From contig CAZNEE010000001.1 in assembly GCA_964572255.1 (NCBI GenBank), positions 395,587-459,586 on the forward strand: 64,000 bases of DNA. Direction: 5' to 3'. This stretch comes from an uncultured Planctomycetia bacterium (lineage in GTDB: Bacteria > Omnitrophota > Gorgyraeia > Tantalellales > Tantalellaceae). The notes beneath the pieces were generated by a model that was not told where the DNA came from, searched no databases, and saw only the letters and a list, made by a program, of their open reading frames with translations. How positions within the stretch are numbered: the first letter of the stretch is position 1; every line of letters starts with the position of its first letter. A program made the translations under genes and the position numbers. This document shows, piece by piece, positions 3,165 through 41,421 of the stretch.

Positions 3165-3602
3165 ATGGTAGAAGGTAAAGAAAAAAGACGTTTTATCAGA
3201 CATCTTTTGGTCAATCCTCTCGAGTTCCAAGTTGCCGAAGAAGAGCCGGAAAGAACAGAGACGGTCAATGTTTCCGAAGGCGGGCTTATGTTCATGTCGA
3301 AAAAGGATGTTCCCGCGGAAACCCCGATCAAGATACAGATGCCTCTTTACGATAAAGTTTTTCAAATAAAGGCAATCGTTGTGCACAGCACCAAGGACGA
3401 AACTGCCGGGCTGTACAAGATAGGAGTTAAGTTCGAAAGTTTCGCTGACGCGTTCAAGGTTAAACTTATCGAGCAGATATACTTGATCGAAGAATACAGG
3501 ATACTCAGGTCGCTTCAGCTTGGCAAAGAGCTCAGTTTACAGGAAGCGTCAAAAGAATGGATCAAGAGATACTCCAAACGGTTCGAAAAGCTGTACTGGT
3601 AA
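3165..3602 (+). CDS. PilZ-domain c-di-GMP binding protein
   Basis: RRFIRH (RxxxR) is followed by NVSEGGLMF (D/NxSxGG), the two-part PilZ c-di-GMP binding signature. 145 aa. Confidence 0.65.
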   Translation: MVEGKEKRRFIRHLLVNPLEFQVAEEEPERTETVNVSEGGLMFMSKKDVPAETPIKIQMPLYDKVFQIKAIVVHSTKDETAGLYKIGVKFESFADAFKVKLIEQIYLIEEYRILRSLQLGKELSLQEASKEWIKRYSKRFEKLYW

Positions 3603-20291: not shown

Positions 20292-20310
20292 TATTGACTT
20301 TGTTTTAGAA

Positions 20311-20382
20311 GTACAGTGCATTTCCTACCAGGGCCCCTCCGCCCGGTGTGGATCCTCCCTGTACGGAAATACACTGTACTTT
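20311..20382 (+). repeat. Structured repeat family B, copy 1 (core GGGCCCCTCCGCCCGGTGTGGATCCTCCC inside a 16-bp outer stem; core-sense on plus strand)
   Basis: The 27-nt core is identical to the copies at 31412-31481 and, in reverse complement, 32625-32695. A 43-nt stretch is identical to copy 3. Outer stems co-vary between copies. The hairpin is followed by TTTT, so it may also serve as the ftsA terminator. Confidence 0.7.
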
Positions 20383-28105: not shown

Positions 28106-29398
28106 ATGGACTGGAAAATAAAAAAAGCTAAGAGGTTGAATGGAGAGCTGACAGTACCTGCGGATAAAAGTATCTCGCATCGCGCTGTCATGTTCGGCTC
28201 CATAGGAAAAGGGAAATGCCGCATTGATAATTTTCTTTCAGGAGAGGACTGCATGCGTACATTCGATGCTTTTCGTGCTATGGGGGTTGATATCGAAAGA
28301 GACGGGGATACCGTCATTGTTAAGGGTAATGGTTTAAAAGGGTTAAAAGCTCCGGAAAAAGATCTTTATTTGGGCAATTCCGGCACGACTATGCGTATAA
28401 TCTCCGGCATTCTTGCGGGACAAGGTTTCGCTACAACTCTTACGGGAGATGAATCGTTATCAAAGCGTCCGATGAAGAGAATAATGGAACCGTTAACTCT
28501 TATGGGGGGAAAAATAGAAGCTTTAGAAGGAGGGGATCATGCGCCTTTAAGAATAGAAGGTACCGGCAGGCCCCTTGCTCCGATCGATCATAAAACTCCT
28601 GTGGCCAGCGCGCAGGTAAAATCCTGCATCCTCGCTGCGGGACTTTACGCTGATGGGGTTACTTCCGTGACAGAACCTTTTCAGTCCAGGGACCATACTG
28701 AAAGGATGCTTGAATATTTTTCAGCTGATATTAAAAGAGAAGGGCTTAAGACAGAGATAAAAGGATTAAAAGAACTTTCGCCTAAAGACGTGAAGATCCC
28801 GGGAGACATTTCCGGCGCGGCGTTCTTTATCGTAGCGTCTCTCATTTTGGGAGGATCAAGTATCATAATACGGAATGTAGGATTAAATTCAACGCGAAGA
28901 GGATTGTTGGATGTTCTGGAGCGCATGGGCGCCGGCATAGAGATCCTTGATGTACATGACGGGCTTGAACCGGCAGGGGACCTGGAAGTAAAAAGTTCTG
29001 CGTTAAAAGGCACAACGGTGGAAGAGGCGGAGGTCCCTCTTCTTATAGATGAGATACCGATACTTGTTATTGCCGCAGCTTTTGCCGGGGGACAAACTGT
29101 CATAAAAGGGATAAAAGAGCTGAAGGTGAAAGAGTCGGACAGGATAAGGGCCATGACAGAGAACCTGAGAGGCATGGGCGTCACTCTGGAAGAAAAAGAA
29201 AATTCCCTTATTATACACGGAGGCGCGGAGGCGCTTGAGGCTTCCGAACTTGATAGTTTTGCGGATCATCGTATCGCGATGAGCATGGCGATCGCGGCGC
29301 TTACCTCAGATGGCGAATGTGTTATCAGGAACACTGCCTGTGTTGATACTTCGTATCCCGCCTTTTTAAGCGATCTGGAAAAGCTTATTGTCCGCTAG
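28106..29398 (+). CDS. aroA: 3-phosphoshikimate 1-carboxyvinyltransferase (EPSP synthase) AroA
   Basis: LGNSGTTMR motif. 430 aa. Confidence 0.9.
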   Translation: MDWKIKKAKRLNGELTVPADKSISHRAVMFGSIGKGKCRIDNFLSGEDCMRTFDAFRAMGVDIERDGDTVIVKGNGLKGLKAPEKDLYLGNSGTTMRIISGILAGQGFATTLTGDESLSKRPMKRIMEPLTLMGGKIEALEGGDHAPLRIEGTGRPLAPIDHKTPVASAQVKSCILAAGLYADGVTSVTEPFQSRDHTERMLEYFSADIKREGLKTEIKGLKELSPKDVKIPGDISGAAFFIVASLILGGSSIIIRNVGLNSTRRGLLDVLERMGAGIEILDVHDGLEPAGDLEVKSSALKGTTVEEAEVPLLIDEIPILVIAAAFAGGQTVIKGIKELKVKESDRIRAMTENLRGMGVTLEEKENSLIIHGGAEALEASELDSFADHRIAMSMAIAALTSDGECVIRNTACVDTSYPAFLSDLEKLIVR

Positions 29399-31325
29399 AA
29401 GAAGGTTCCTCTAAAGGGAGTTCTTCTTCAGGGAGCTCCTCTACAGAAATTTCTTCTGCAGGAATAACGGGAACTTCTCCTACAGGGACAACGGGTTTGC
29501 CTTCCAATTCATTAAGCCGGGTTTGAAGATATCCCGATTTTGGATCGAGAGATATGGCCTTTTCCAAGAGGGTGATCGCTTTTTCCTTATCTCCCATTTT
29601 TAAGTGCACTTCAGCAAGAGTGTCGATAAAAGTAGGAAAGTTGTTTGACAGTTCAACTGCCCGCTCGGCGTATTTTAAAGCAGCATCTAAATTTGTCCCT
29701 TTCTGCGCGTAATCCCAGGCCAGGTTGTTCAGGGAAGCCGGCATATCCGGATTGATGGCGATAGCTTTTTCATAACAGACGATCGCATTATCCCGATCAT
29801 CTTGCTTGCCGTAAACCATTCCCAGGGATTCCCAGGCCCTGTTAAAATCGGGATATGTTGCAGTAAGTTCCACAAGCTCTTTTTTCGCCAGGTCGAGCCG
29901 GGCATTGCGAAAGTAGAGCTGCGCCAGGGTGAGCTTTACCACCTTGTTATTTGGATCTTTATCCAGGAGGTCCTTAAAAAAAGTTATCATCGAGTTTATA
30001 TCTCCGCCCTTAAACCTGACGGGCCCGAAAAGAAAATTCTTAAAATACTGTATTTTTTCTTTGGGATCCGCGCCTTTATCCAGTATTTTTATAAGTTCGG
30101 GTCTTTTTTTCTCAAGATATTCCATCAATCCGCTTTTTAATTCCGAAGCTTTTTCCGGGTTCTCGCCGGCGATATTTTTAAGTTCGTGAGGGTCATTTTC
30201 AAGATCATATAGTTCAGCTTCGGGGAGTTCGATATATTTAAAACCGTCAAGAATCAAGCCCACCACAGGCGCCCAGCCGAAGTTATAATAACCTTCCAGA
30301 GATTCAAGGTAAATAGATCTGGACCGGACTTTTTCTTCCTTTTCTTTCATGAGTTCCAGAAGACTTCCGCCGTCGAATTCTTCATCCGCATAGCTGATAT
30401 TGATAATATCCAGGATCGTGGGGGCAATATCCGGATTTGAAGCAGGGGTCTTGATCTTTTTGGCTTTAAGATCTTCCGGGAACTTTATGATGAGAGGGAC
30501 TCTTACAGTCGCATCATACAGAAATATACCGTGAGTCGGTTCCCCGTGTTCATTTAGACTTTCACCGCTTGTCGCGGTGAATATTATGATAGTGTTGTCG
30601 CTCAGGCCTAATTTCTCTATTCCGTCCAGAAGTTTCGAAACTTCGTCATCTAACAGCAAAATTTGCCTGTCATAAGGAAAATCGTCTTTCGCCTTTTCAA
30701 AAGTTTCAGGCACCTTGTAGGGGAATTGGGGGATAGGGTAGCTTACCCATATAAATGCGGGATCTCCTTTTTCGTTAGATTCCTTAAGTATTTCCAGCAC
30801 GCCATCTGTCAATTTATTCCAGCGTTCGGGAAGTTCTTCCTGGGGGAGATCTTCCATGACACCTTCAAATAGGTCAAATTCCTTATCATATCCAAATCTT
30901 TTCATGAAAGTAGTGTTAAGCATAACCGCGGCTCTGGTATATTCTTTTGTTTTTAAATATTTTCCCAAAGTGTTATAAGAATCATCAAGATCAAAAGCAT
31001 CTCCGCGTTTGGAAATGACCGAACCGCCGTTTTTCCCGCTAAAGATCGTCGCATAACTATAAAAAGGAACGGGGGCGTTGCAGTATACATTTTCAAATAA
31101 AACACCGTTCTCTGCAAGTTTGTCTATGGATCCTGTTTTTACATGCTCATAACCGTAAGAGCTCAAGTGGTCCGGTCGTAAGGAGCCTGCGGTTATCAGG
31201 AGGATGTTCGGTTTATCATATGAGACTCTAACTTTAGAAGGTATCTTTGAGTAGAGGAATACGGCGGCAGAGATGACCGCCACGATCAGAATTATAATAA
31301 AGATAGTTTTTAAAAGTTTGCCCAT
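29385..31325 (-). CDS. Sulfatase-like (alkaline-phosphatase superfamily) membrane-anchored protein with C-terminal TPR repeats
   Basis: N-terminal TM (MGKLLKTIFIIILIVAVISAAVF), then PNILLITAGSLRPDHLSSYGY and LAENGVLFENVY, which resemble the sulfatase N-terminal region. The canonical C/S-x-P-x-R motif is not obvious. The C-terminal ~200 aa are TPR repeats ending in a Pro/Glu-rich tail. The start is placed at ATG 31325 with an AAGGGGGGAG RBS; the ORF-track start at 31478 reads through repeat B. Confidence 0.7.
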   Translation of the reverse strand: MGKLLKTIFIIILIVAVISAAVFLYSKIPSKVRVSYDKPNILLITAGSLRPDHLSSYGYEHVKTGSIDKLAENGVLFENVYCNAPVPFYSYATIFSGKNGGSVISKRGDAFDLDDSYNTLGKYLKTKEYTRAAVMLNTTFMKRFGYDKEFDLFEGVMEDLPQEELPERWNKLTDGVLEILKESNEKGDPAFIWVSYPIPQFPYKVPETFEKAKDDFPYDRQILLLDDEVSKLLDGIEKLGLSDNTIIIFTATSGESLNEHGEPTHGIFLYDATVRVPLIIKFPEDLKAKKIKTPASNPDIAPTILDIINISYADEEFDGGSLLELMKEKEEKVRSRSIYLESLEGYYNFGWAPVVGLILDGFKYIELPEAELYDLENDPHELKNIAGENPEKASELKSGLMEYLEKKRPELIKILDKGADPKEKIQYFKNFLFGPVRFKGGDINSMITFFKDLLDKDPNNKVVKLTLAQLYFRNARLDLAKKELVELTATYPDFNRAWESLGMVYGKQDDRDNAIVCYEKAIAINPDMPASLNNLAWDYAQKGTNLDAALKYAERAVELSNNFPTFIDTLAEVHLKMGDKEKAITLLEKAISLDPKSGYLQTRLNELEGKPVVPVGEVPVIPAEEISVEELPEEELPLEEPSSSGQ

Positions 31326-31411
31326 TTCTCCCCCCTTAATTGTTGATACATTGTGTATACCATAAAAGGCGATGCGAGTCAAATAGTTGATGAGAATCTC
31401 AATATTAAAGT

Positions 31412-31481
31412 GAGTGGTAGGTACCTTTCGTGGGCCCCTCCGCCCGGTGTGGATCCTCCCACTCAAGGCACCTACCACTCG
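31412..31481 (+). repeat. Structured repeat family B, copy 2 (core-sense on plus strand)
   Basis: The identical 27-nt core GGGCCCCTCCGCCCGGTGTGGATCCTCCC. The outer stem is different but still self-complementary: GAGTGGTAGGTACC / GGCACCTACCACTC. Confidence 0.7.
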
Positions 31482-31542
31482 CTTTAATTAAGAAGATCCA
31501 CTGCTCGCTTCGATGGCGGGTGAAAAAGATCATGAAAAAATT

Positions 31543-31572
31543 TGACAATGGAAAATTATATGGCATACTTTA
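31543..31572 (+). promoter_or_regulatory. Candidate sigma70 promoter driving the riboswitch leader
   Basis: TTGACA, a 16-17 nt spacer, then CATACT/ATACTT. Located about 40 bp upstream of the aptamer. Confidence 0.35.
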
Positions 31573-31599
31573 AGAGATAGCAAAGTAAGATTAGAAATG

Positions 31600-31700
31600 T
31601 GTTTTTATTACGAATCGTAAACCATTCGAAAGAGTGGGGCACAAAGCCAGGGGGCGTAAGGCCGGCCGGCTACCGTTTTAACACTGTCGTAAAGTGTTGA
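31600..31700 (+). ncRNA. c-di-GMP-I (GEMM) riboswitch aptamer
   Basis: AAACCATTCGAAAGAGTGGG at 31619-31638 is identical over 20 nt to the P2 hairpin of the Vibrio cholerae Vc2 GEMM-I aptamer. GCACAAAGCC at 31639-31648 is the Vc2 ACGCAAAGCC motif with its first two bases swapped. A GGCGTAAGG tetraloop-receptor-like P3 follows. It sits in a ~200-nt leader. Confidence 0.65.
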
Positions 31701-31728
31701 TTGGGAAAACCCATTCTTTTGGATTTAT

Positions 31729-31760
31729 GTCCCAACCTTACGATAGGTTGGGTTTTTGTT
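31729..31760 (+). terminator. Intrinsic terminator acting as riboswitch expression platform
   Basis: CCCAACC (31731-37), loop TTACGATA, GGTTGGG (31746-52), then TTTTTGTTTATT. It lies immediately 5' of the AGGAGA RBS and ATG of the downstream gene. Confidence 0.6.
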
Positions 31761-31776
31761 TATTAGGAGACTGAAG

Positions 31777-32397
31777 ATGAAAGAAACATGCGATCTTATC
31801 ATTATATTGCTGATGACTATACTGCTCGGGGGTGTTGCGTTCGCGTCCGAAAGTAAACCGGATCTGTACGAGATCACCGGTTACGAAGGAACGCAAGGGA
31901 TCGTTTCATCAGATTATGAAAAGTTAAATACTACAAAAGCGGAAACTGTTTTTCAGATACTGTTGGAAGACGCGGGCTATTGCGACGAAAATATTTTTGG
32001 TATTTACAGTTTTACTGATATTGATGGGATGATAACTGTGGATGTTATGCATCAAATATTCAAAGGGACAGATGCCCCGGGTAGTGAGAAAAACATCTAC
32101 CCCGGGATAAATTCTGAGATAGGGTTTTATCTCACAACACCGCAAGGCTATACGTATTATAGCCATACGTCTTTGAATCCCGATCGAGAGCAGCACATGC
32201 TGCTGTTCTCTTATTCTGATGTCAGCGATTCTGAGAGTTTTGTTGTTGCATGTGAGGACCTGTATGGTTTGGGTGACTGCGATTATAATGATCTTGTTGT
32301 TAAAGCAAGCGACGTACAAGGCAATCCCGAACCGGCTACAATATTATCGTTCTTCCTAGCCGGACTTGGTCTGGCATTTAGAAAAATGAGAAAATAA
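31777..32397 (+). CDS. Secreted PEP-CTERM protein (exosortase substrate), riboswitch-controlled
   Basis: Signal peptide MKETCDLIIILLMTILLGGVAFA. The C-terminal NPEPATILSFFLAGLGLAFRKMRK has PEP followed by a TM helix and a basic cluster. An internal EDLYGLGDCDYNDLVV motif is DUF4114-like. Confidence 0.6.
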   Translation: MKETCDLIIILLMTILLGGVAFASESKPDLYEITGYEGTQGIVSSDYEKLNTTKAETVFQILLEDAGYCDENIFGIYSFTDIDGMITVDVMHQIFKGTDAPGSEKNIYPGINSEIGFYLTTPQGYTYYSHTSLNPDREQHMLLFSYSDVSDSESFVVACEDLYGLGDCDYNDLVVKASDVQGNPEPATILSFFLAGLGLAFRKMRK

Positions 32398-32417
32398 TCA
32401 TTTTTCTCATCACCACT

Positions 32418-32456
32418 AAAAGCCCGCTATGCAAAAGCATAGCGGGCTTTATTATT
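32418..32456 (+). terminator. Rho-independent terminator
   Basis: AAAGCCCGCTATGC-AAAA-GCATAGCGGGCTTT forms a perfect 14-bp stem, followed by ATTATT. Confidence 0.65.
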
Positions 32457-32516
32457 CAGTTGGTTCACAAAAGAAAAAGAAGATTCTTTTCCCCTGAGAA
32501 TTATTAATTATAAACA

Positions 32517-32575
32517 GCCGTTTAAACTATTTCTCGCAGGGACGTCAAAATTTCCCAGCGAGAAACAGTTCAAAC
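32517..32575. repeat. Palindromic repeat family A, copy 2 (extended stem CCGTTTAAACTATTTCTCGC...GCGAGAAACAGTTCAAACGG)
   Basis: It shares the core CTCGCAGGGACGTCAAAAT(T)TCCCAGCGAG with 9113-9160. The stem bases are co-varying. Confidence 0.6.
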
Positions 32576-32624
32576 GGCCGTAATAATGGATAATGTCAAA
32601 TATCTCGCTGATTTTGCTTTTTAA

Positions 32625-32695
32625 AGTGCAGTATGTTTCCGTACAGGGAGGATCCACACCGGGCGGAGGGGCCCTGGTAGGAAATATACTGCACT
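32625..32695 (-). repeat. Structured repeat family B, copy 3 (core on minus strand)
   Basis: Its reverse complement is identical to copy 1 over a 43-nt stretch. The outer stem differs at two base pairs, both with compensatory changes (A-T to G-C, and G-C to A-T). Confidence 0.7.
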
Positions 32696-32750
32696 TCTGA
32701 ATAAACATAAAGTCAGAATTTTTTTTGACATTATGCCTCAACGAATGTTA

Positions 32751-32779
32751 TTGACAAAAAAAACAATATTTGTTACCAT
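32751..32779 (+). promoter_or_regulatory. Candidate sigma70 promoter for the mreB operon (TTGACA, 17-nt spacer, TGtTACCAT)
   Basis: TTGACA at 32751-56 and an extended -10 TGTTACCAT at 32771-79. Confidence 0.4.
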
Positions 32780-32853
32780 TTTTATCGGCTTAATGGCTGT
32801 CTATATAAAAATAATTTTTAAGATAAGTTATTATAGTAAGGGATTGGGGCGTT

Positions 32854-39890: not shown

Positions 39891-40958
39891 ATGACAGACA
39901 ATGTCCAAAAACTTTTCGTGGAGATGAAGGATAAGAACGCTTCAGATATCCACATAACCGCAAATTCACCCATACATTTCAGGATTGATGAAGAGCTTGT
40001 AAAGGTGAATGACAATATCTTAACACCCGATGAAACCAAGACCATTGCTTACAGTCTTATGAGCGATTTCCAGAAGAAAAAATTTGAAGAAGAGAAGGAG
40101 CTGGACTTTTCATTTTCACTGGAAGATATGGGACGTTTCAGGGTAAATATTTTTATGCAGAGATTTTGCGTAGGTTGTGCTATACGAAGAATACCGCCTG
40201 AGATAATGAGTATCGAGGAATGTGGTTTGCCGATCGACGTGGTTAAAGGTTTTTGTCATACCCCTAAAGGTCTGGTCCTCGTAACGGGCGCAACAGGAAG
40301 CGGCAAATCGACCACTCTCGCGGCCATGGTCGATGAGATAAACAAGACCCGCAAGTGTCACATCGTAACGGTGGAAGATCCGATAGAATTCGTCCACCAG
40401 AACAAGCAGGCCGTAGTTGACCAGAGAGAAGTGTTTTCCGACACGTTTTCGTTTAACAACGCTCTCAGGAATGTTCTAAGACAAGACCCTGATGTTATTC
40501 TGATAGGCGAACTTCGCGACCTGGAAACGATCCAGCAGGCAATGATCATTGCCGATACCGGACACCTCGTTCTAGGTACATTACACACATCAGACAGCGT
40601 GCAGACCATAAACCGTATAATTGACGTTTTTCCGTCACACCAGCAAAGGCAGATCAGGGTCCAGCTTTCTTTCGTTCTGACGGGGCTGATTTCCCAGCAG
40701 CTCATACAGTATAAAGACGGGTCGGGCATGGAGCTTGCGACAGAGATACTTGTCGCGACACCGGCGATAAGAAGCATGATCCGGGAAGATAAGGTGCACC
40801 AGATATATTCCATCATGCAGACTTCTCAGAATCTCGGAATGAGAACGATGAACCAGGCTCTCTTTGAGTTATACTCAGCCGGCAAAATATCCTACGATAG
40901 CGCGATATCGAAATCAGGAGATGTGGAAGAATTGCTTAAAATGATAGAAAAAATATAA
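39891..40958 (+). CDS. pilT: Type IV pilus retraction ATPase PilT
   Basis: Walker A LVTGATGSGKSTT, PilT-type Asp/His boxes. About 355 aa with no long N-terminal domain. GGAGGGGG RBS. Confidence 0.85.
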   Translation: MTDNVQKLFVEMKDKNASDIHITANSPIHFRIDEELVKVNDNILTPDETKTIAYSLMSDFQKKKFEEEKELDFSFSLEDMGRFRVNIFMQRFCVGCAIRRIPPEIMSIEECGLPIDVVKGFCHTPKGLVLVTGATGSGKSTTLAAMVDEINKTRKCHIVTVEDPIEFVHQNKQAVVDQREVFSDTFSFNNALRNVLRQDPDVILIGELRDLETIQQAMIIADTGHLVLGTLHTSDSVQTINRIIDVFPSHQQRQIRVQLSFVLTGLISQQLIQYKDGSGMELATEILVATPAIRSMIREDKVHQIYSIMQTSQNLGMRTMNQALFELYSAGKISYDSAISKSGDVEELLKMIEKI

Positions 40959-40971
40959 AAAGGAGATAAAC

Positions 40972-41421
40972 GTGATACTGAAAAGACAATTGGATGAAAG
41001 GCTCGGGGAAATACTTATCCGCAACGGCAATATTTCTGATGAGCAGCTGGGCAAGGCGCTGGATCTCCAGAAACGCGAAGGCGGGCTTCTGGGCGAAGTC
41101 CTTTCGAAGCTTGGTTATGTAAAGGAACTGGAGATCGTTCAGGCGCTTACCGCGCAATACGGGTTTCCGTACATTCCGCTGGAAAATTATGAATTGAACA
41201 AAAAGTGCGCGGAAATAGTTTCCGAAGATCTTGCCAGGCAGCATAATCTTGTTCCGCTTGATGTGATCGGGGGCCTGTTGACGGTCGCGATGTCTAATCC
41301 GCTGAACAAAAAGTCGATCGAGGAGACAGAGTCGCTTACGGGAAAAAAGATCCAGATCTTCATATCCACTGCTTCATCGATAAATGATTCTATCAATGAA
41401 CTCTATAGGAAAGAAGAATAA
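40972..41421 (+). CDS. Standalone MshEN (c-di-GMP-binding) plus GspE-N1 domain protein, with no ATPase domain
   Basis: Two canonical 24-aa MshEN motifs are separated by a 5-aa spacer: RLGEILIRNGNISDEQLGKALDLQ, then KREGG, then LLGEVLSKLGYVKELEIVQALTAQ. A T2SSE_N-like fold follows. GTG start with an AAAAGGAG RBS. Confidence 0.65.
   Translation: MILKRQLDERLGEILIRNGNISDEQLGKALDLQKREGGLLGEVLSKLGYVKELEIVQALTAQYGFPYIPLENYELNKKCAEIVSEDLARQHNLVPLDVIGGLLTVAMSNPLNKKSIEETESLTGKKIQIFISTASSINDSINELYRKEE

What the first reader, a model, noticed from the sequence alone, without database searches (positions are those of the whole stretch)
31543..31776. c-di-GMP-I (GEMM) riboswitch with terminator expression platform in the leader of a PEP-CTERM gene
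The leader contains AAACCATTCGAAAGAGTGGG followed by GCACAAAGCC. This is nearly identical, over about 30 nt, to the P2 hairpin plus the conserved ACGCAAAGCC core of the Vibrio cholerae Vc2 c-di-GMP-I aptamer. The P2 hairpin CCATTC-GAAA-GAGTGG with its GNRA tetraloop is fully preserved. A GGCGTAAGG tetraloop-receptor-like segment follows. An intrinsic terminator (CCCAACC...GGTTGGG-TTTTT) sits immediately 5' of the RBS, so c-di-GMP probably gates read-through. The window also holds a PilZ protein (3165-3602) and a standalone MshEN receptor in the pilus locus, so c-di-GMP control of surface and secreted functions looks like a local theme.
Basis: partly seen in the sequence, partly recalled or inferred. 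Interest (0 to 1): 0.8.

Follow-up and report, generated by a model that had tools for sequence, protein, structure and literature searches.

The report
Cyclic-di-GMP-type riboswitch before surface-protein gene
The leader of a small secreted-protein gene in an uncultured Omnitrophota bacterium carries a genuine GEMM-I (cyclic-di-GMP class I) riboswitch followed by a terminator, an ordinary kind of element, except that one of the three bases that normally touch the ligand is a C instead of the usual G.

Summary
Rfam's c-di-GMP-I model (RF01051) matches window 31606-31677 (+) at 48.3 bits (gathering 35, E 2e-6). It is the only RNA family hit in the 64 kb. A sigma-70-like promoter lies upstream (31542-31569). 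A strong intrinsic terminator (31731-31757) and RBS/ATG (31765/31777) lie downstream. The gene is a monocistronic 206-aa signal-peptide + DUF4114 + PEP-CTERM protein.

Nearly every conserved aptamer position is present, but the ligand-contact position 20 is C (31616), not G or A. J1/2 is 2 nt shorter than consensus, and P3 is truncated, keeping only the 5' half of the tetraloop receptor. So membership of the fold is secure, while c-di-GMP as the ligand is likely but unproven.

The platform fits two mutually exclusive states that are nearly equal in energy before the terminator's 3' half emerges. In one, the aptamer forms together with an antiterminator (31685-99:31733-46). In the other, a 15-bp helix destroys P2 (31624-38:31710-24), and hairpin H and the terminator form. 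I infer a kinetically controlled ON switch.

Comparative support is missing: six assemblies carry an identical leader. The element is a new member of a known kind, with a possibly interesting binding-site variant.

The parts
31542..31569 (+). Sigma-70-like promoter: TTGACA, 16 nt spacer with TG, CATACT. The predicted transcription start is at about 31576-31578.
   Evidence: Consensus scan, 10 of 12 matches. Prediction only. Identical in six assemblies.
31606..31677 (+). GEMM-I (c-di-GMP-I family) aptamer.
   Evidence: RF01051 at 48.3 bits, gathering 35, E 2.2e-6, model positions 1-87.
31599..31612 (+). P1 5' strand. ACG (31610-12) pairs with CGU (31674-76). GUGUU (31599-603) can pair with AACAC (31680-84) as a P1 extension. 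UUA (31605-07) can alternatively pair with UAA (31679-81).
   Evidence: Constrained fold with P2/P3 fixed picks ACG:CGU plus GUGUU:AACAC. Not significant against shuffles (538 of 2000), so this is inferred.
31613..31616 (+). J1/2 = AAUC (consensus aaAAAG, 2 nt longer). C31616 occupies ligand-contact position 20 (G in c-di-GMP sensors, A in c-GAMP sensors).
   Evidence: cmscan alignment. Register is fixed by G31617-C31642 and U31618-A31641, followed by A47-49 at 31643-45. The role of G20 is from PMC6140456 and PMC3764141.
31622..31637 (+). P2 hairpin CCAUUC-GAAA-GAGUGG with a GNRA tetraloop. It is flanked by the internal loop AAA (31619-21) / GGC (31638-40) and the P1a pairs 31617-42 and 31618-41.
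31643..31645 (+). J2/3 A47-A48-A49. A47 intercalates between the ligand bases in Vc2.
   Evidence: cmscan alignment; roles from PMC3764141.
31645..31671 (+). Truncated P3: AGCC-A-GG-G-GGC [GUAAG] GCC-GG-CCGGCU. The GG at 31664-65 aligns with the bulged G83, partner of C44 (= C31640). The loop CGUAAG aligns to the 5' half of the tetraloop receptor.
   Evidence: cmscan alignment and MFE; conserved-position list in PMC3764141.
31673..31673 (+). C92 equivalent (Watson-Crick partner of the second ligand guanine).
   Evidence: cmscan alignment ...GGCU-A-C-CG.
31678..31700 (+). Hairpin H (UUAACACU-GUCGUAA-AGUGUUGA). Its 5' strand overlaps the P1 3' strand. Its loop and 3' strand form the 5' half of the antiterminator.
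   Evidence: Co-transcriptional MFEs. Cross-complementarity to the terminator region is -18.5 kcal/mol against -6.2 +/- 2.2 in shuffles, 1 of 2000.
31710..31724 (+). Anti-P2 strand CCCAUUCUUUUGGAU. It forms a 15-bp helix with 31624-31638 (P2 5' strand, tetraloop and 3' strand). Its 5' part can instead close a small hairpin with 31699-31705.
   Evidence: MFE of the full leader. Duplex energy -21.2 against -11.1 +/- 2.7 in shuffles, 8 of 2000.
31685..31746 (+). Predicted antiterminator. 31685-31699 (UGUCGUAAAGUGUUG) pairs with 31733-31746 (CAACCUUACGAUAG): 13 bp with two 1-nt bulges. It encloses 31700-31732.
   Evidence: It is the MFE whenever the transcript ends before 31747 and AACAC is unavailable, and also when AACAC is free. 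Barrier to the terminator is about 12.7 kcal/mol.
31731..31761 (+). Intrinsic terminator CCCAACCU-UACGAU-AGGUUGGG followed by UUUUUGUUU.
   Evidence: Terminator scan: 8 pairs, 5 of them G-C. Forms in every full-length MFE.
31765..31779 (+). RBS AGGAG (31765-69) and start codon ATG (31777-79).
31777..32397 (+). Regulated gene: 206 aa with an N-terminal signal peptide, a DUF4114 domain and a C-terminal PEP-CTERM sorting signal (PEPATILSFFLAGLGLAFRKMRK).
   Evidence: Pfam PF13448 at 36 bits; TIGR02595 at 18.5 (cut-off 16); homologue alignment.
32419..32456 (+). The gene's own terminator, AAAGCCCGCTATGC-AAAA-GCATAGCGGGCTTT + ATTATT. It makes the unit monocistronic.
   Evidence: Perfect 14-nt inverted repeat I7; sequence. 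mreB has its own promoter-like site at 32751-32779.

Best explanation
This is a cis-acting riboswitch of the GEMM-I fold (Rfam RF01051, clan CL00126). It sits in the roughly 200-nt leader of a monocistronic gene for a secreted DUF4114 protein with a PEP-CTERM (exosortase) sorting signal, in a Candidatus Omnitrophota bacterium. It most likely senses c-di-GMP and controls premature transcription termination at the hairpin 31731-31752 plus U-run.

Shown:
- The aptamer match, and all conserved core positions except position 20.
- A canonical terminator.
- Two statistically non-random alternative pairings: P2 with 31710-24, and hairpin H with the terminator region.

Inferred: the leader toggles between two global folds that cannot coexist.
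- OFF fold: a small hairpin at 31608-20 sequesters J1/2 and P1a; the 15-bp helix 31624-38:31710-24 destroys P2; hairpin H (31678-31700) forms; the terminator then forms and transcription stops.
- ON fold: P1, P2 and P3 (the ligand-bound aptamer) form. P1 takes the 5' strand of H. That leaves the H loop and 3' strand (31685-99) free to pair with the terminator's 5' half and loop (31733-46) as they emerge. This antiterminator leaves GGUUGGG unpaired and the polymerase reads through.

The two folds are within 2 kcal/mol of each other just before the terminator's 3' half is made. Computed barriers of 12-15 kcal/mol separate them. Ligand binding energy would therefore decide the outcome kinetically: ligand present means gene ON.

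High c-di-GMP turning on a PEP-CTERM/exopolysaccharide-associated surface protein fits the usual biology of this messenger.

My confidence differs by step:
- GEMM-I-fold riboswitch acting on this terminator: about 0.8.
- Ligand is c-di-GMP: about 0.65.
- Direction is ON: about 0.55.

The single confidence value given (0.55) is for the composite statement.
For: Aptamer:
- RF01051 scores 48.3 bits (gathering 35), E 2.2e-6, full model.
- The positions listed as highly conserved in PMC3764141 map as follows: A23, A25, G32, A35, G42, C44, A47-49, C59, G79, G83 and C92 are all present, and C22-G45 is replaced by a compensated U-A pair.
- The P1a pair also differs while staying paired in two other lineages: CC/GG in L003 and L039, GC/GC in the consensus.

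Context:
- Promoter and terminator scans.
- The gene has its own terminator.
- The organism encodes PilZ and MshEN c-di-GMP receptors in the same window.
- Two other DUF4114/PEP-CTERM genes carry GEMM-I aptamers directly upstream: Desulfonema limicola, next to a GNVR/kinase/sugar-transferase EPS cluster, and the marine contig L039.

Platform:
- The leader folds far better than shuffles (z = -4.5).
- The 15-bp P2:31710-24 helix appears in the MFE as soon as it is transcribed and is non-random (8 of 2000).
- H-to-terminator cross-complementarity is non-random (1 of 2000).
- The antiterminator is the MFE before 31747.
- Energies at 31746: ON -43.4, OFF -41.5. After the terminator is complete: OFF -54.9.
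- Barriers: antiterminator to terminator 12.7 kcal/mol; A:B+H to P2+antiterminator about 14.5; P2 to A:B 7-11.
- Locking the aptamer cuts the terminator state's advantage from 7 to about 2 kcal/mol.
Against: - Position 20 is C, not G or A. In Vc2 a pyrimidine there (G20U) drops c-di-GMP affinity to low micromolar (PMC4686816). The ligand, or even binding competence, is therefore not assured.
- J1/2 is 2 nt short, and P1 is weak and not distinguishable from shuffles.
- P3 lacks the 3' half of the tetraloop receptor.
- There is no comparative support for the platform. The leader is identical in six assemblies, whose flanks are also 99-100% identical. The two other lineages with an aptamer have unrelated platforms.
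- In every equilibrium calculation the terminator forms in both the ligand-free and the aptamer-locked state. Regulation therefore rests on kinetics that I estimated only with nearest-neighbour energies and direct-path barriers, without tertiary, ligand, pseudoknot or polymerase terms.
- The barrier H to antiterminator (7.3 kcal/mol) is low enough that H alone may not block antitermination.
- The barrier P2 to A:B (up to 10.8) may be too slow for the decision window.
- A B. thuringiensis precedent (Bc1, PMC11218506) shows that a downstream terminator can mask a c-di-GMP response entirely.
Confidence: 0.55

Rival explanations
1. OFF switch. Ligand binding locks the aptamer, so that the terminator 31731-52 (and perhaps the weak upstream hairpin 31699-31716 with its UUUU run) forms. 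Without ligand, aptamer segments pair with the terminator's 5' half and act as the antiterminator.
For: Aptamer segments are complementary to the terminator 5' region:
- UGGGGCA (31635-41) with UGUCCCA (31728-34), -12.7 kcal/mol.
- GGGGCGUAA (31651-59) with UUAUGUCCC (31725-33).
- AUCGUAA (31614-20) with UUACGAU (31738-44).

The unconstrained MFE at transcript length 31745 uses the last two (-50.0 against -46.3). Aptamer versus T5 region scores 32 of 2000 in shuffles. The small hairpin 31699-31716 followed by UUUU can form only when 31710-16 is not held by P2, that is, in the ligand-bound state.
Against: The anti-P2 strand is transcribed before the terminator and captures 31631-38, removing the strongest of these antiterminators. 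The others require invading the stable P3 hairpin. The ligand-free full-length MFE has the terminator with a 7 kcal/mol advantage. The upstream hairpin is weak (U-U mismatch, 4 U) and is not called by the terminator scan. High c-di-GMP repressing a PEP-CTERM/EPS-type protein would be biologically less expected.
Confidence: 0.15
2. Altered-specificity variant. With C at position 20 (triad C20-A47-C92) and a shortened J1/2, the aptamer prefers another cyclic dinucleotide. One candidate is 3',3'-cGAMP, since neutral C offers the same acceptor-N plus amino-donor pattern as the A20 of c-GAMP riboswitches. Alternatively it binds c-di-GMP only at much higher concentration.
For: - C31616 sits at position 20 in a register fixed by flanking pairs.
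- It is identical in six independent assemblies, so it is not a sequencing error.
- G20A is what converts GEMM-I to c-GAMP sensing, and A20 binds c-di-GMP only when protonated (PMC6140456).
- G20U Vc2 binds c-di-GMP only at low micromolar (PMC4686816).
- Rfam already separates GGC and UAU binding-site variants within the clan (consensus).
- The other two DUF4114-associated aptamers have G20, so C20 is a derived state.
Against: It is found in a single lineage only, with no sign of a recurrent class. C20 is also part of the CGUAA motif that pairs with UUACG in the OFF-state hairpin (31608-20), so it may be selected for switching rather than for ligand choice. C could pair with guanine (Watson-Crick, or C+ Hoogsteen) and keep c-di-GMP specificity. 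The genome context shows c-di-GMP receptors, and no c-GAMP synthase was looked for or seen.
Confidence: 0.15
3. Decayed or non-responsive element. The aptamer no longer binds a ligand usefully, and the terminator acts as a constitutive attenuator, or is controlled by something else (a protein, or RNA stability as for Vc2).
For: A key contact (G20) is lost, P1 is weak and P3 is truncated. The terminator forms in all equilibrium folds. The cassette is a recent lineage-specific insertion between aroA and mreB. Bc1 of B. thuringiensis binds c-di-GMP yet does not regulate, because its second terminator stays folded (PMC11218506). Vc2 acts through RNA stability rather than termination (bioRxiv 10.1101/617340).
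Against: All other conserved core and tertiary-contact positions are intact, including a compensated pair. The platform contains two long alternative helices that are non-random and two near-isoenergetic exclusive states. That is hard to explain without selection for switching.
Confidence: 0.15

Closest known systems
Vibrio cholerae Vc2 and other canonical c-di-GMP-I (GEMM-I, Rfam RF01051) riboswitches
   Same: Three-helix junction. P2 with a GAAA tetraloop and an AAA/GNC internal loop. A47-A49 in J2/3. C92. The C44...G83 inter-helix pair candidates. A 5'-UTR location. Scores above the family's gathering threshold.
   Different: C instead of G at ligand-contact position 20. J1/2 is 4 nt rather than 6. 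The C22-G45 pair is replaced by U-A. P3 is cut down to 9 bp with a GUAAG loop, so only half of the 11-nt tetraloop receptor remains. P1 is weak and interrupted.
c-AMP-GMP (GEMM-Ib) riboswitches of Geobacter (e.g. Gs1761)
   Same: Same fold. Specificity is changed by the identity of position 20 alone, with C92 and A47 kept (PMC6140456). Deltaproteobacterial or anaerobic sediment setting and extracellular-protein target genes.
   Different: Those have A at position 20, while this one has C. No evidence here for c-GAMP synthesis or binding.
Rfam c-di-GMP-I-GGC (RF03167) and c-di-GMP-I-UAU variants (clan CL00126)
   Same: Short P3 as in the GGC model. A 5'-truncated copy of this aptamer (L001) scores best against the GGC model (39.6 bits). 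The two other DUF4114-associated aptamers also score best to it (59.6 and 53.2 bits). The concept of binding-site variants within the fold is shared.
   Different: The full-length window aptamer scores best to RF01051. It has A, not G, at position 47, and C, not G or U, at position 20. It is below RF03167's gathering score of 59.
Bc1 c-di-GMP-I riboswitch of Bacillus thuringiensis (long expression platform with two terminators; PMC11218506)
   Same: A long platform, with more than 50 nt between aptamer and main terminator. A weaker hairpin plus U-run (31699-31720) lies upstream of a strong terminator. The terminator stays folded in equilibrium regardless of aptamer state.
   Different: There is no sequence relationship. 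Here the upstream hairpin is marginal, and an explicit antiterminator (31685-99:31733-46) against the main terminator is available.

Membership tests
GEMM-I fold / Rfam RF01051 c-di-GMP-I | Covariance-model score at or above the curated gathering score | tested here: met
   48.3 bits against 35; E 2.2e-6; model positions 1-87 of 87.
GEMM-I fold / Rfam RF01051 c-di-GMP-I | P2 (P1b) hairpin with GNRA tetraloop, internal loop A23-A25 / G42-N-C44, and the two junction-proximal pairs 21-46 and 22-45 | tested here: met
   CCAUUC-GAAA-GAGUGG at 31622-37. AAA at 31619-21 opposite GGC at 31638-40. G31617-C31642 and U31618-A31641, the latter a compensated change from C-G.
GEMM-I fold / Rfam RF01051 c-di-GMP-I | J2/3 A47-A48-A49 and J3/1 C92 | tested here: met
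   A31643-45 and C31673 in the cmscan alignment. Roles per PMC3764141 and PMC6140456.
c-di-GMP-sensing subclass (binding triad G20-A47-C92) | G at position 20, whose Watson-Crick edge reads the Hoogsteen edge of one ligand guanine | tested here: not met
   C31616 occupies the position, and the register is fixed by flanking pairs. It is identical in six assemblies. This lowers the claim 'it senses c-di-GMP like Vc2', not the claim of fold membership, since RF01051 also holds A20 members.
c-AMP-GMP-sensing subclass (GEMM-Ib, triad A20-A47-C92) | A at position 20 | tested here: not met
   C31616.
GEMM-I fold / Rfam RF01051 c-di-GMP-I | P3 with bulged G83 pairing to C44, and a tetraloop receptor (C59/G79 A-minor, CUAAG...UAUG) for the P2 tetraloop | tested here: inconclusive
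   GG at 31664-65 aligns with A-G83 and C31640 with C44. C31655-G31661 aligns with C59-G79. But P3 ends in a GUAAG loop, and the receptor's 3' half is deleted (8+7 model positions unaligned). Docking cannot be tested in silico here.
GEMM-I fold / Rfam RF01051 c-di-GMP-I | P1 helix closing the junction (needed for stable ligand binding; PMC11705072) | tested here: inconclusive
   ACG:CGU (3 bp) plus either GUGUU:AACAC or UUA:UAA beyond an internal loop. The energy is not different from shuffles (538 of 2000).
GEMM-I fold / Rfam RF01051 c-di-GMP-I | Covariation supporting the helices among relatives of this particular element | tested here: inconclusive
   Six assemblies carry an identical leader. 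Only cross-lineage comparison with L003 and L039 shows the P1a and P2 pairs changing while staying paired.
Riboswitch (any class) | Direct, selective ligand binding that changes expression of the downstream gene | not testable with these tools
   Needs in-line probing or ITC, and transcription or reporter assays.
Riboswitch (any class) | Sense-strand 5'-UTR position, with an expression platform whose structure is mutually exclusive with the aptamer | tested here: met
   Order is promoter 31542-69, aptamer, terminator 31731-57, RBS. The 15-bp helix 31624-38:31710-24 excludes P2. H excludes P1 and the antiterminator. The antiterminator excludes the terminator.
Rfam RF03167 c-di-GMP-I-GGC | G at position 47 and score at or above 59 bits | tested here: not met
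   A31643 is at position 47. RF01051 outscores RF03167 on the full element. The truncated copy L001 reaches only 39.6 bits.

The most novel reading that the evidence does not exclude
The C20-A47-C92 aptamer, with its 2-nt-shorter J1/2 and half tetraloop receptor, is a functional specificity variant of GEMM-I. It would sense something other than canonical nanomolar c-di-GMP. Candidates are 3',3'-cGAMP or another cyclic dinucleotide read by a neutral C. Alternatively it would sense c-di-GMP through a C-G or C+-G pair with a deliberately high threshold. Either case would add a fifth binding-site type to the clan, beside GAC, AAC, GGC and UAU, and reveal second-messenger control of exosortase substrates in Omnitrophota.
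Probability: 0.15. Interest if true: 0.7.

Novelty: new member of a known kind. Interest (0 to 1): 0.35.

Why it matters
On its face this is a routine Rfam-level riboswitch annotation. It has three modest points of value.

1. It places cyclic-dinucleotide riboswitch control in Candidatus Omnitrophota, an uncultured phylum. It ties that control to a secreted DUF4114/PEP-CTERM protein. That association recurs independently in Desulfonema limicola and a marine contig, suggesting that this uncharacterised protein family belongs to the c-di-GMP/biofilm-matrix regulon.

2. The natural C at ligand-contact position 20 is a ready-made test of how far the GEMM-I pocket tolerates, or exploits, a pyrimidine there. 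The only change at this position so far shown to switch specificity is G to A.

3. The platform is a clean, fully enumerable two-state design. It has an anti-P2 strand and an anti-antiterminator hairpin, so it makes specific mutational predictions for kinetic riboswitch control.

Tried and rejected
1. Covariation from close relatives. Five further assemblies carrying the gene (L002, L060-L063) have a leader identical from -35 to ATG apart from 0-2 substitutions. Their flanks are equally identical (mreB 99.6-99.8%), so conservation says nothing.

2. Homologous leaders through the protein family. 15 homologues were found. Alignment-based scans of genome and metagenome collections gave 52 loci (the first attempt failed). 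Rfam scans of 39 of these 52 loci (the 12 TARA-like loci L048-L059 and L015, a duplicate of L002, were not scanned) found an aptamer only in L039, and an earlier scan found one upstream of the D. limicola homologue (L003/L004). Both have G20 and unrelated platforms, so they do not inform this platform.

3. Synteny in related Omnitrophota (AroA 69% identical). aroA is followed directly by mreB, so the cassette is absent there.

4. A census of position 20 from a degenerate pattern scan of viral contigs. Only 3 of 120 matches were real aptamers (G, G, A), so this was abandoned.

5. Primary papers for G20 mutant affinities and natural position-20 frequencies (Smith 2009 and 2010, Kellenberger 2015, Nelson 2015, Weinberg 2017 PNAS) are not held. 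I used secondary statements from held papers instead.

6. Checking the Vc2 sequence identity by text search found nothing.

7. A custom covariance model was not built, because the three-sequence MAFFT alignment was misregistered in J1/2.

8. I considered and rejected a pseudoknotted antiterminator (31699-705 with 31730-35) coexisting with the full 15-bp anti-P2 helix. The 6-nt connecting loop cannot span 15 bp.

9. I considered that the 29-nt perfect inverted repeats bracketing the unit make it an invertible phase-variation switch. This is unlikely, because the promoter and gene would invert together, and the core is a dispersed repeat.
Full report

Yes.
- AAACCATTCGAAAGAGTGGG at 31619-31638, then GCACAAAGCC at 31639-31648
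- GGCGTAAGG at 31653-31661
- CCCAACCTTACGATAGGTTGGG + TTTTT at 31731-31757
- AGGAG at 31765-69 and ATG at 31777

A scan of the whole window against all 4227 Rfam families gives one hit at gathering threshold. It is RF01051 c-di-GMP-I at 31606-31677 (+), 48.3 bits (gathering 35), E 2.2e-6, covering the full model. A permissive rescan (E <= 0.5) finds no second member of the clan in the 64 kb.

The consensus scans call TTGACA-16-CATACT at 31542-31569 and the terminator at 31731-31752.

The downstream ORF (ATG 31777 to stop at 32397, 206 aa) has three parts: a signal-peptide-like N-terminus, a DUF4114 domain (36 bits against 27), and a PEP-CTERM sorting signal (TIGR02595 18.5 against 16; the Pfam PEP-CTERM model is just under its cut-off).

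The context remarks are also right. A PilZ protein with intact RRxxR/NxSxxG motifs is at 3165-3602. A stand-alone MshEN-domain ORF is at about 40948-41418.

**2. Anatomy of the aptamer**

The cmscan alignment, read in Vc2 numbering, was compared with two sources: the list of highly conserved positions and tertiary contacts in PMC3764141, and the contacts described in PMC6140456 and PMC11705072. The mapping is:
- P1a pairs: G21-C46 = G31617-C31642, and C22-G45 = U31618-A31641, a change on both sides that keeps the pair
- A23-A25 = 31619-21
- P2 = CCAUUC/GAGUGG with G32-A35 = GAAA (31628-31)
- G42-N-C44 = GGC (31638-40)
- A47-A49 = 31643-45
- P3 base = AGCC/GGCU
- the bulged G83 that pairs with C44 = one of G31664/65
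- the C59-G79 pair that receives A35 = C31655-G31661
- C92 = C31673
- the P1 apex pair G14-C93 = G31612-C31674

Three things deviate.

(a) Position 20 is C31616. [quoted passage not shown] The register cannot be shifted, because it is pinned by the two P1a pairs followed immediately by AAA.

(b) J1/2 is AAUC: 4 nt against the consensus 6.

(c) P3 is truncated to 9 bp and ends in a GUAAG loop.

The C at position 20 is not an assembly error. Six independent assemblies carry it.

**3. Organism and evolutionary setting**

The best named relatives of the window's AroA are all Candidatus Omnitrophota/Omnitrophica, at 60-70% identity.

In three such relatives aroA is followed directly by mreB-mreC-mreD-PBP2-rodA. 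In the window, about 3.4 kb lies between aroA and mreB. It holds a divergent sulfatase/TPR gene, the riboswitch and the DUF4114 gene. The unit is therefore a lineage-specific insertion.

The DUF4114 gene has its own strong terminator (32419-32450), and mreB has its own promoter-like site. The riboswitch therefore governs one gene.

**4. Related sequences**

The protein has few relatives. Across roughly 45 loci encoding relatives that were scanned, Rfam finds a GEMM-I-type aptamer directly upstream in only two other lineages.
- Desulfonema limicola (L003 2856-2933, 59.6 bits to the short-P3 GGC model, but with G20/A47/C92). There the gene heads a GNVR / tyrosine-kinase-like / sugar-transferase exopolysaccharide cluster.
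- A marine contig (L039 1815-1899, 53.2 bits, G20/A47/C92).

Thirty-eight scanned loci have none.

The gene-riboswitch association is thus recurrent but sporadic. C20 is a derived state of this lineage. The P1a and P2 pairs differ between lineages while staying paired. The platforms of the other two are unrelated.

Among the near-identical strains the leader is invariant, but so are the flanks (mreB 99.6-99.8%). No covariation or selective-constraint argument can therefore be made for this particular element.

**5. The expression platform**

The leader folds much better than shuffles (-67.4 kcal/mol, z = -4.5). Growing-transcript folds show the following order of events. P2 and P3 form first. 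Hairpin H (31678-31700) follows. As soon as 31710-31724 (CCCAUUCUUUUGGAU) is made, the minimum-energy fold replaces P2 by a 15-bp helix with 31624-31638, which is the P2 5' strand, the GAAA loop and the 3' strand.

That helix is non-random: -21.2 against -11.1 +/- 2.7 kcal/mol, 8 of 2000 dinucleotide shuffles.

Separately, hairpin H and the terminator hairpin are near reverse complements of each other: -18.5 against -6.2 +/- 2.2, 1 of 2000. The H loop plus 3' strand (31685-99) pairs with the terminator's 5' half plus loop (31733-46), 13 bp with two bulges. This antiterminator is the minimum-energy fold of the platform for any transcript that ends before 31747.

The 5' strand of H (UUAACAC, 31678-84) overlaps the 3' strand of P1. 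With P2 and P3 fixed, the best closing helix is ACG:CGU plus GUGUU(31599-603):AACAC(31680-84), although P1 is too weak to stand out from shuffles.

The anti-P2 strand lies inside the antiterminator's loop. The anti-P2 helix and the antiterminator therefore cross, and cannot coexist as nested structure. The connecting loops (8-10 nt) are too short for a pseudoknot across a 15-bp helix.

**6. Two-state model**

Everything fits two global folds.
- OFF: a 31608-20 hairpin (UUACG-AAU-CGUAA, which buries C20 and P1a), the anti-P2 helix, P3, H, and then the terminator.
- ON: P1 (with extension), P1a, P2 and P3, plus the antiterminator.

Evaluated on 31590-31746, just before the terminator's 3' half appears, ON is -43.4 and OFF is -41.5 kcal/mol with no ligand term. 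On 31590-31760, OFF with terminator is -54.9 and ON stays at -43.4.

Direct-path barrier estimates:

| Transition | Barrier (kcal/mol) |
|---|---|
| antiterminator to terminator | 12.7 |
| anti-P2+H to or from P2+antiterminator | about 14.5 |
| P2 to anti-P2 | 7.4-10.8 |
| H to antiterminator | 7.3 |

Locking the aptamer reduces the terminator state's equilibrium advantage from 7 to about 2 kcal/mol.

Near-degenerate, mutually exclusive folds separated by high barriers at the decision point are what a kinetically controlled riboswitch should look like. Ligand binding energy on the aptamer side would push the leader into the antiterminated fold. I therefore infer an ON switch.

A plausible detail, which is inference only, concerns the toehold. 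The anti-P2 strand starts its invasion on the GAAA loop (UUUU:GAAA), and docking of that loop on P3 in the bound state would hide it.

**7. Caveats**

The terminator forms in every equilibrium fold, ligand-free or aptamer-locked. The argument is therefore kinetic. It rests on nearest-neighbour energies without tertiary, ligand, pseudoknot or polymerase terms.

Aptamer segments are also complementary to the terminator's 5' region (32 of 2000), which keeps an OFF model alive.

The Bc1 riboswitch of B. thuringiensis shows that a long platform with a persistent downstream terminator can make a ligand-binding c-di-GMP aptamer regulatorily silent (PMC11218506). Vc2 itself works through RNA stability rather than termination (bioRxiv 10.1101/617340).

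**8. Ligand**

A47 and C92 are canonical, and the genome uses c-di-GMP receptors. c-di-GMP is therefore the most likely ligand.

Position 20 matters, however. G20A is what turns the fold into a c-GAMP sensor, and A20 binds c-di-GMP only when protonated (PMC6140456). Vc2 G20U retains only low-micromolar c-di-GMP affinity (PMC4686816).

From base chemistry (my inference), C20 has three possible readings:
- It could pair with guanine, either Watson-Crick or as C+ on the Hoogsteen edge, and keep c-di-GMP.
- As neutral C, it could mimic A20's acceptor/donor pattern and favour an adenine-containing dinucleotide.
- It could merely raise the threshold.

C20 is also needed for the OFF-state hairpin (C31616-G31612), so it may be selected for switching.

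**9. Comparison with known families, and verdict**

By Rfam's criterion this is a member of RF01051 (clan CL00126), and it works like a transcription-terminating GEMM-I riboswitch.

Its binding triad C-A-C matches none of the described types:
- G-A-C, c-di-GMP
- A-A-C, c-AMP-GMP
- G-G-C (consensus seen) and U-A-U, the Rfam variant families; that these names denote positions 20/47/92 is my recollection of Weinberg et al. 2017, which is not held

I therefore file it under the fold, not under the proven c-di-GMP-sensing subclass.

It is known from one lineage only, so I rate it a new member of a known kind with a potentially interesting variant. Interest is 0.35. The variant-specificity reading has a probability of about 0.15 and would merit about 0.7 if true.

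Noticed in passing
window 31404-31488, 32624-32696 and 20305-20382 (cores 31432-31460, 32646-32674, 20331-20359): A dispersed intergenic palindromic element. An exactly conserved 29-nt core, GGGCCCCTCCGCCCGGTGTGGATCCTCCC, sits at the tip of 75-85-nt hairpins whose stems differ or co-vary (RNA fold -48.9 kcal/mol, z = -7.6). Two copies form perfect inverted repeats 1185 nt apart that bracket the whole promoter-riboswitch-gene unit. In sister assemblies (L002, L060, L061) the upstream copy is present in the opposite orientation. It is REP- or MITE-like and may be linked to the insertion of the cassette.
   Followed up: partly
window 31777-32397 compared with L060, L061, L062: The DUF4114/PEP-CTERM coding sequence is the most variable stretch among otherwise near-identical strains. 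There are 17 mismatches in 621 nt in L062, where the leader, the upstream intergenic region and the sulfatase 5' end are 100% identical. There are 27-28 mismatches in L060/L061, against 99.6% identity for mreB in L060. This suggests diversifying selection or recombination on a surface protein.
   Followed up: partly
window 29385-32850 compared with L068, L070, L071: The sulfatase/TPR gene, riboswitch and DUF4114 gene form a lineage-specific insertion of about 3.4 kb between aroA and mreB. Related Omnitrophota have aroA directly followed by mreBCD-PBP2-rodA.
   Followed up: yes
window 32514-32581 and 32590-32734: There are further long inverted repeats in the intergenic region before mreB: I3 with 29-nt arms at 86%, and I5 with 26-nt arms at 73%. 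L002 differs from the window here by gaps totalling 83 nt. The weak two-strand Rfam sub-threshold hits (Bp2_287, 32383-32490) lie further upstream, over the gene's own terminator palindrome at 32419-32450.
   Followed up: no
L003 2856-2933 (Desulfonema limicola CP061799) and L039 1815-1899: Two other DUF4114/PEP-CTERM genes carry GEMM-I aptamers that score best to the c-di-GMP-I-GGC model (59.6 and 53.2 bits). They nevertheless have the canonical G20/A47/C92 triad. The GGC model seems to capture short-P3 canonical aptamers too.
   Followed up: partly
window 31608-31620, 31655-31659, 31687-31691, 31738-31743: The pentamer CGUAA occurs three times in the leader: in J1/2-P1a, in the P3 loop and in the H loop. 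Its complement UUACG(A) occurs twice: in the P1 5' strand and in the terminator loop. The H loop and the terminator loop are fully complementary over 7 nt, so a kissing contact is also possible.
   Followed up: partly
window 40948-41418 and 3165-3602: A stand-alone MshEN-domain ORF (157 aa) and a single-domain PilZ protein are both present, both with intact c-di-GMP-binding motifs. No GGDEF motif was seen in the window by a simple regex search. A relative (L068) has a HAMP-GGDEF gene after rodA.
   Followed up: partly
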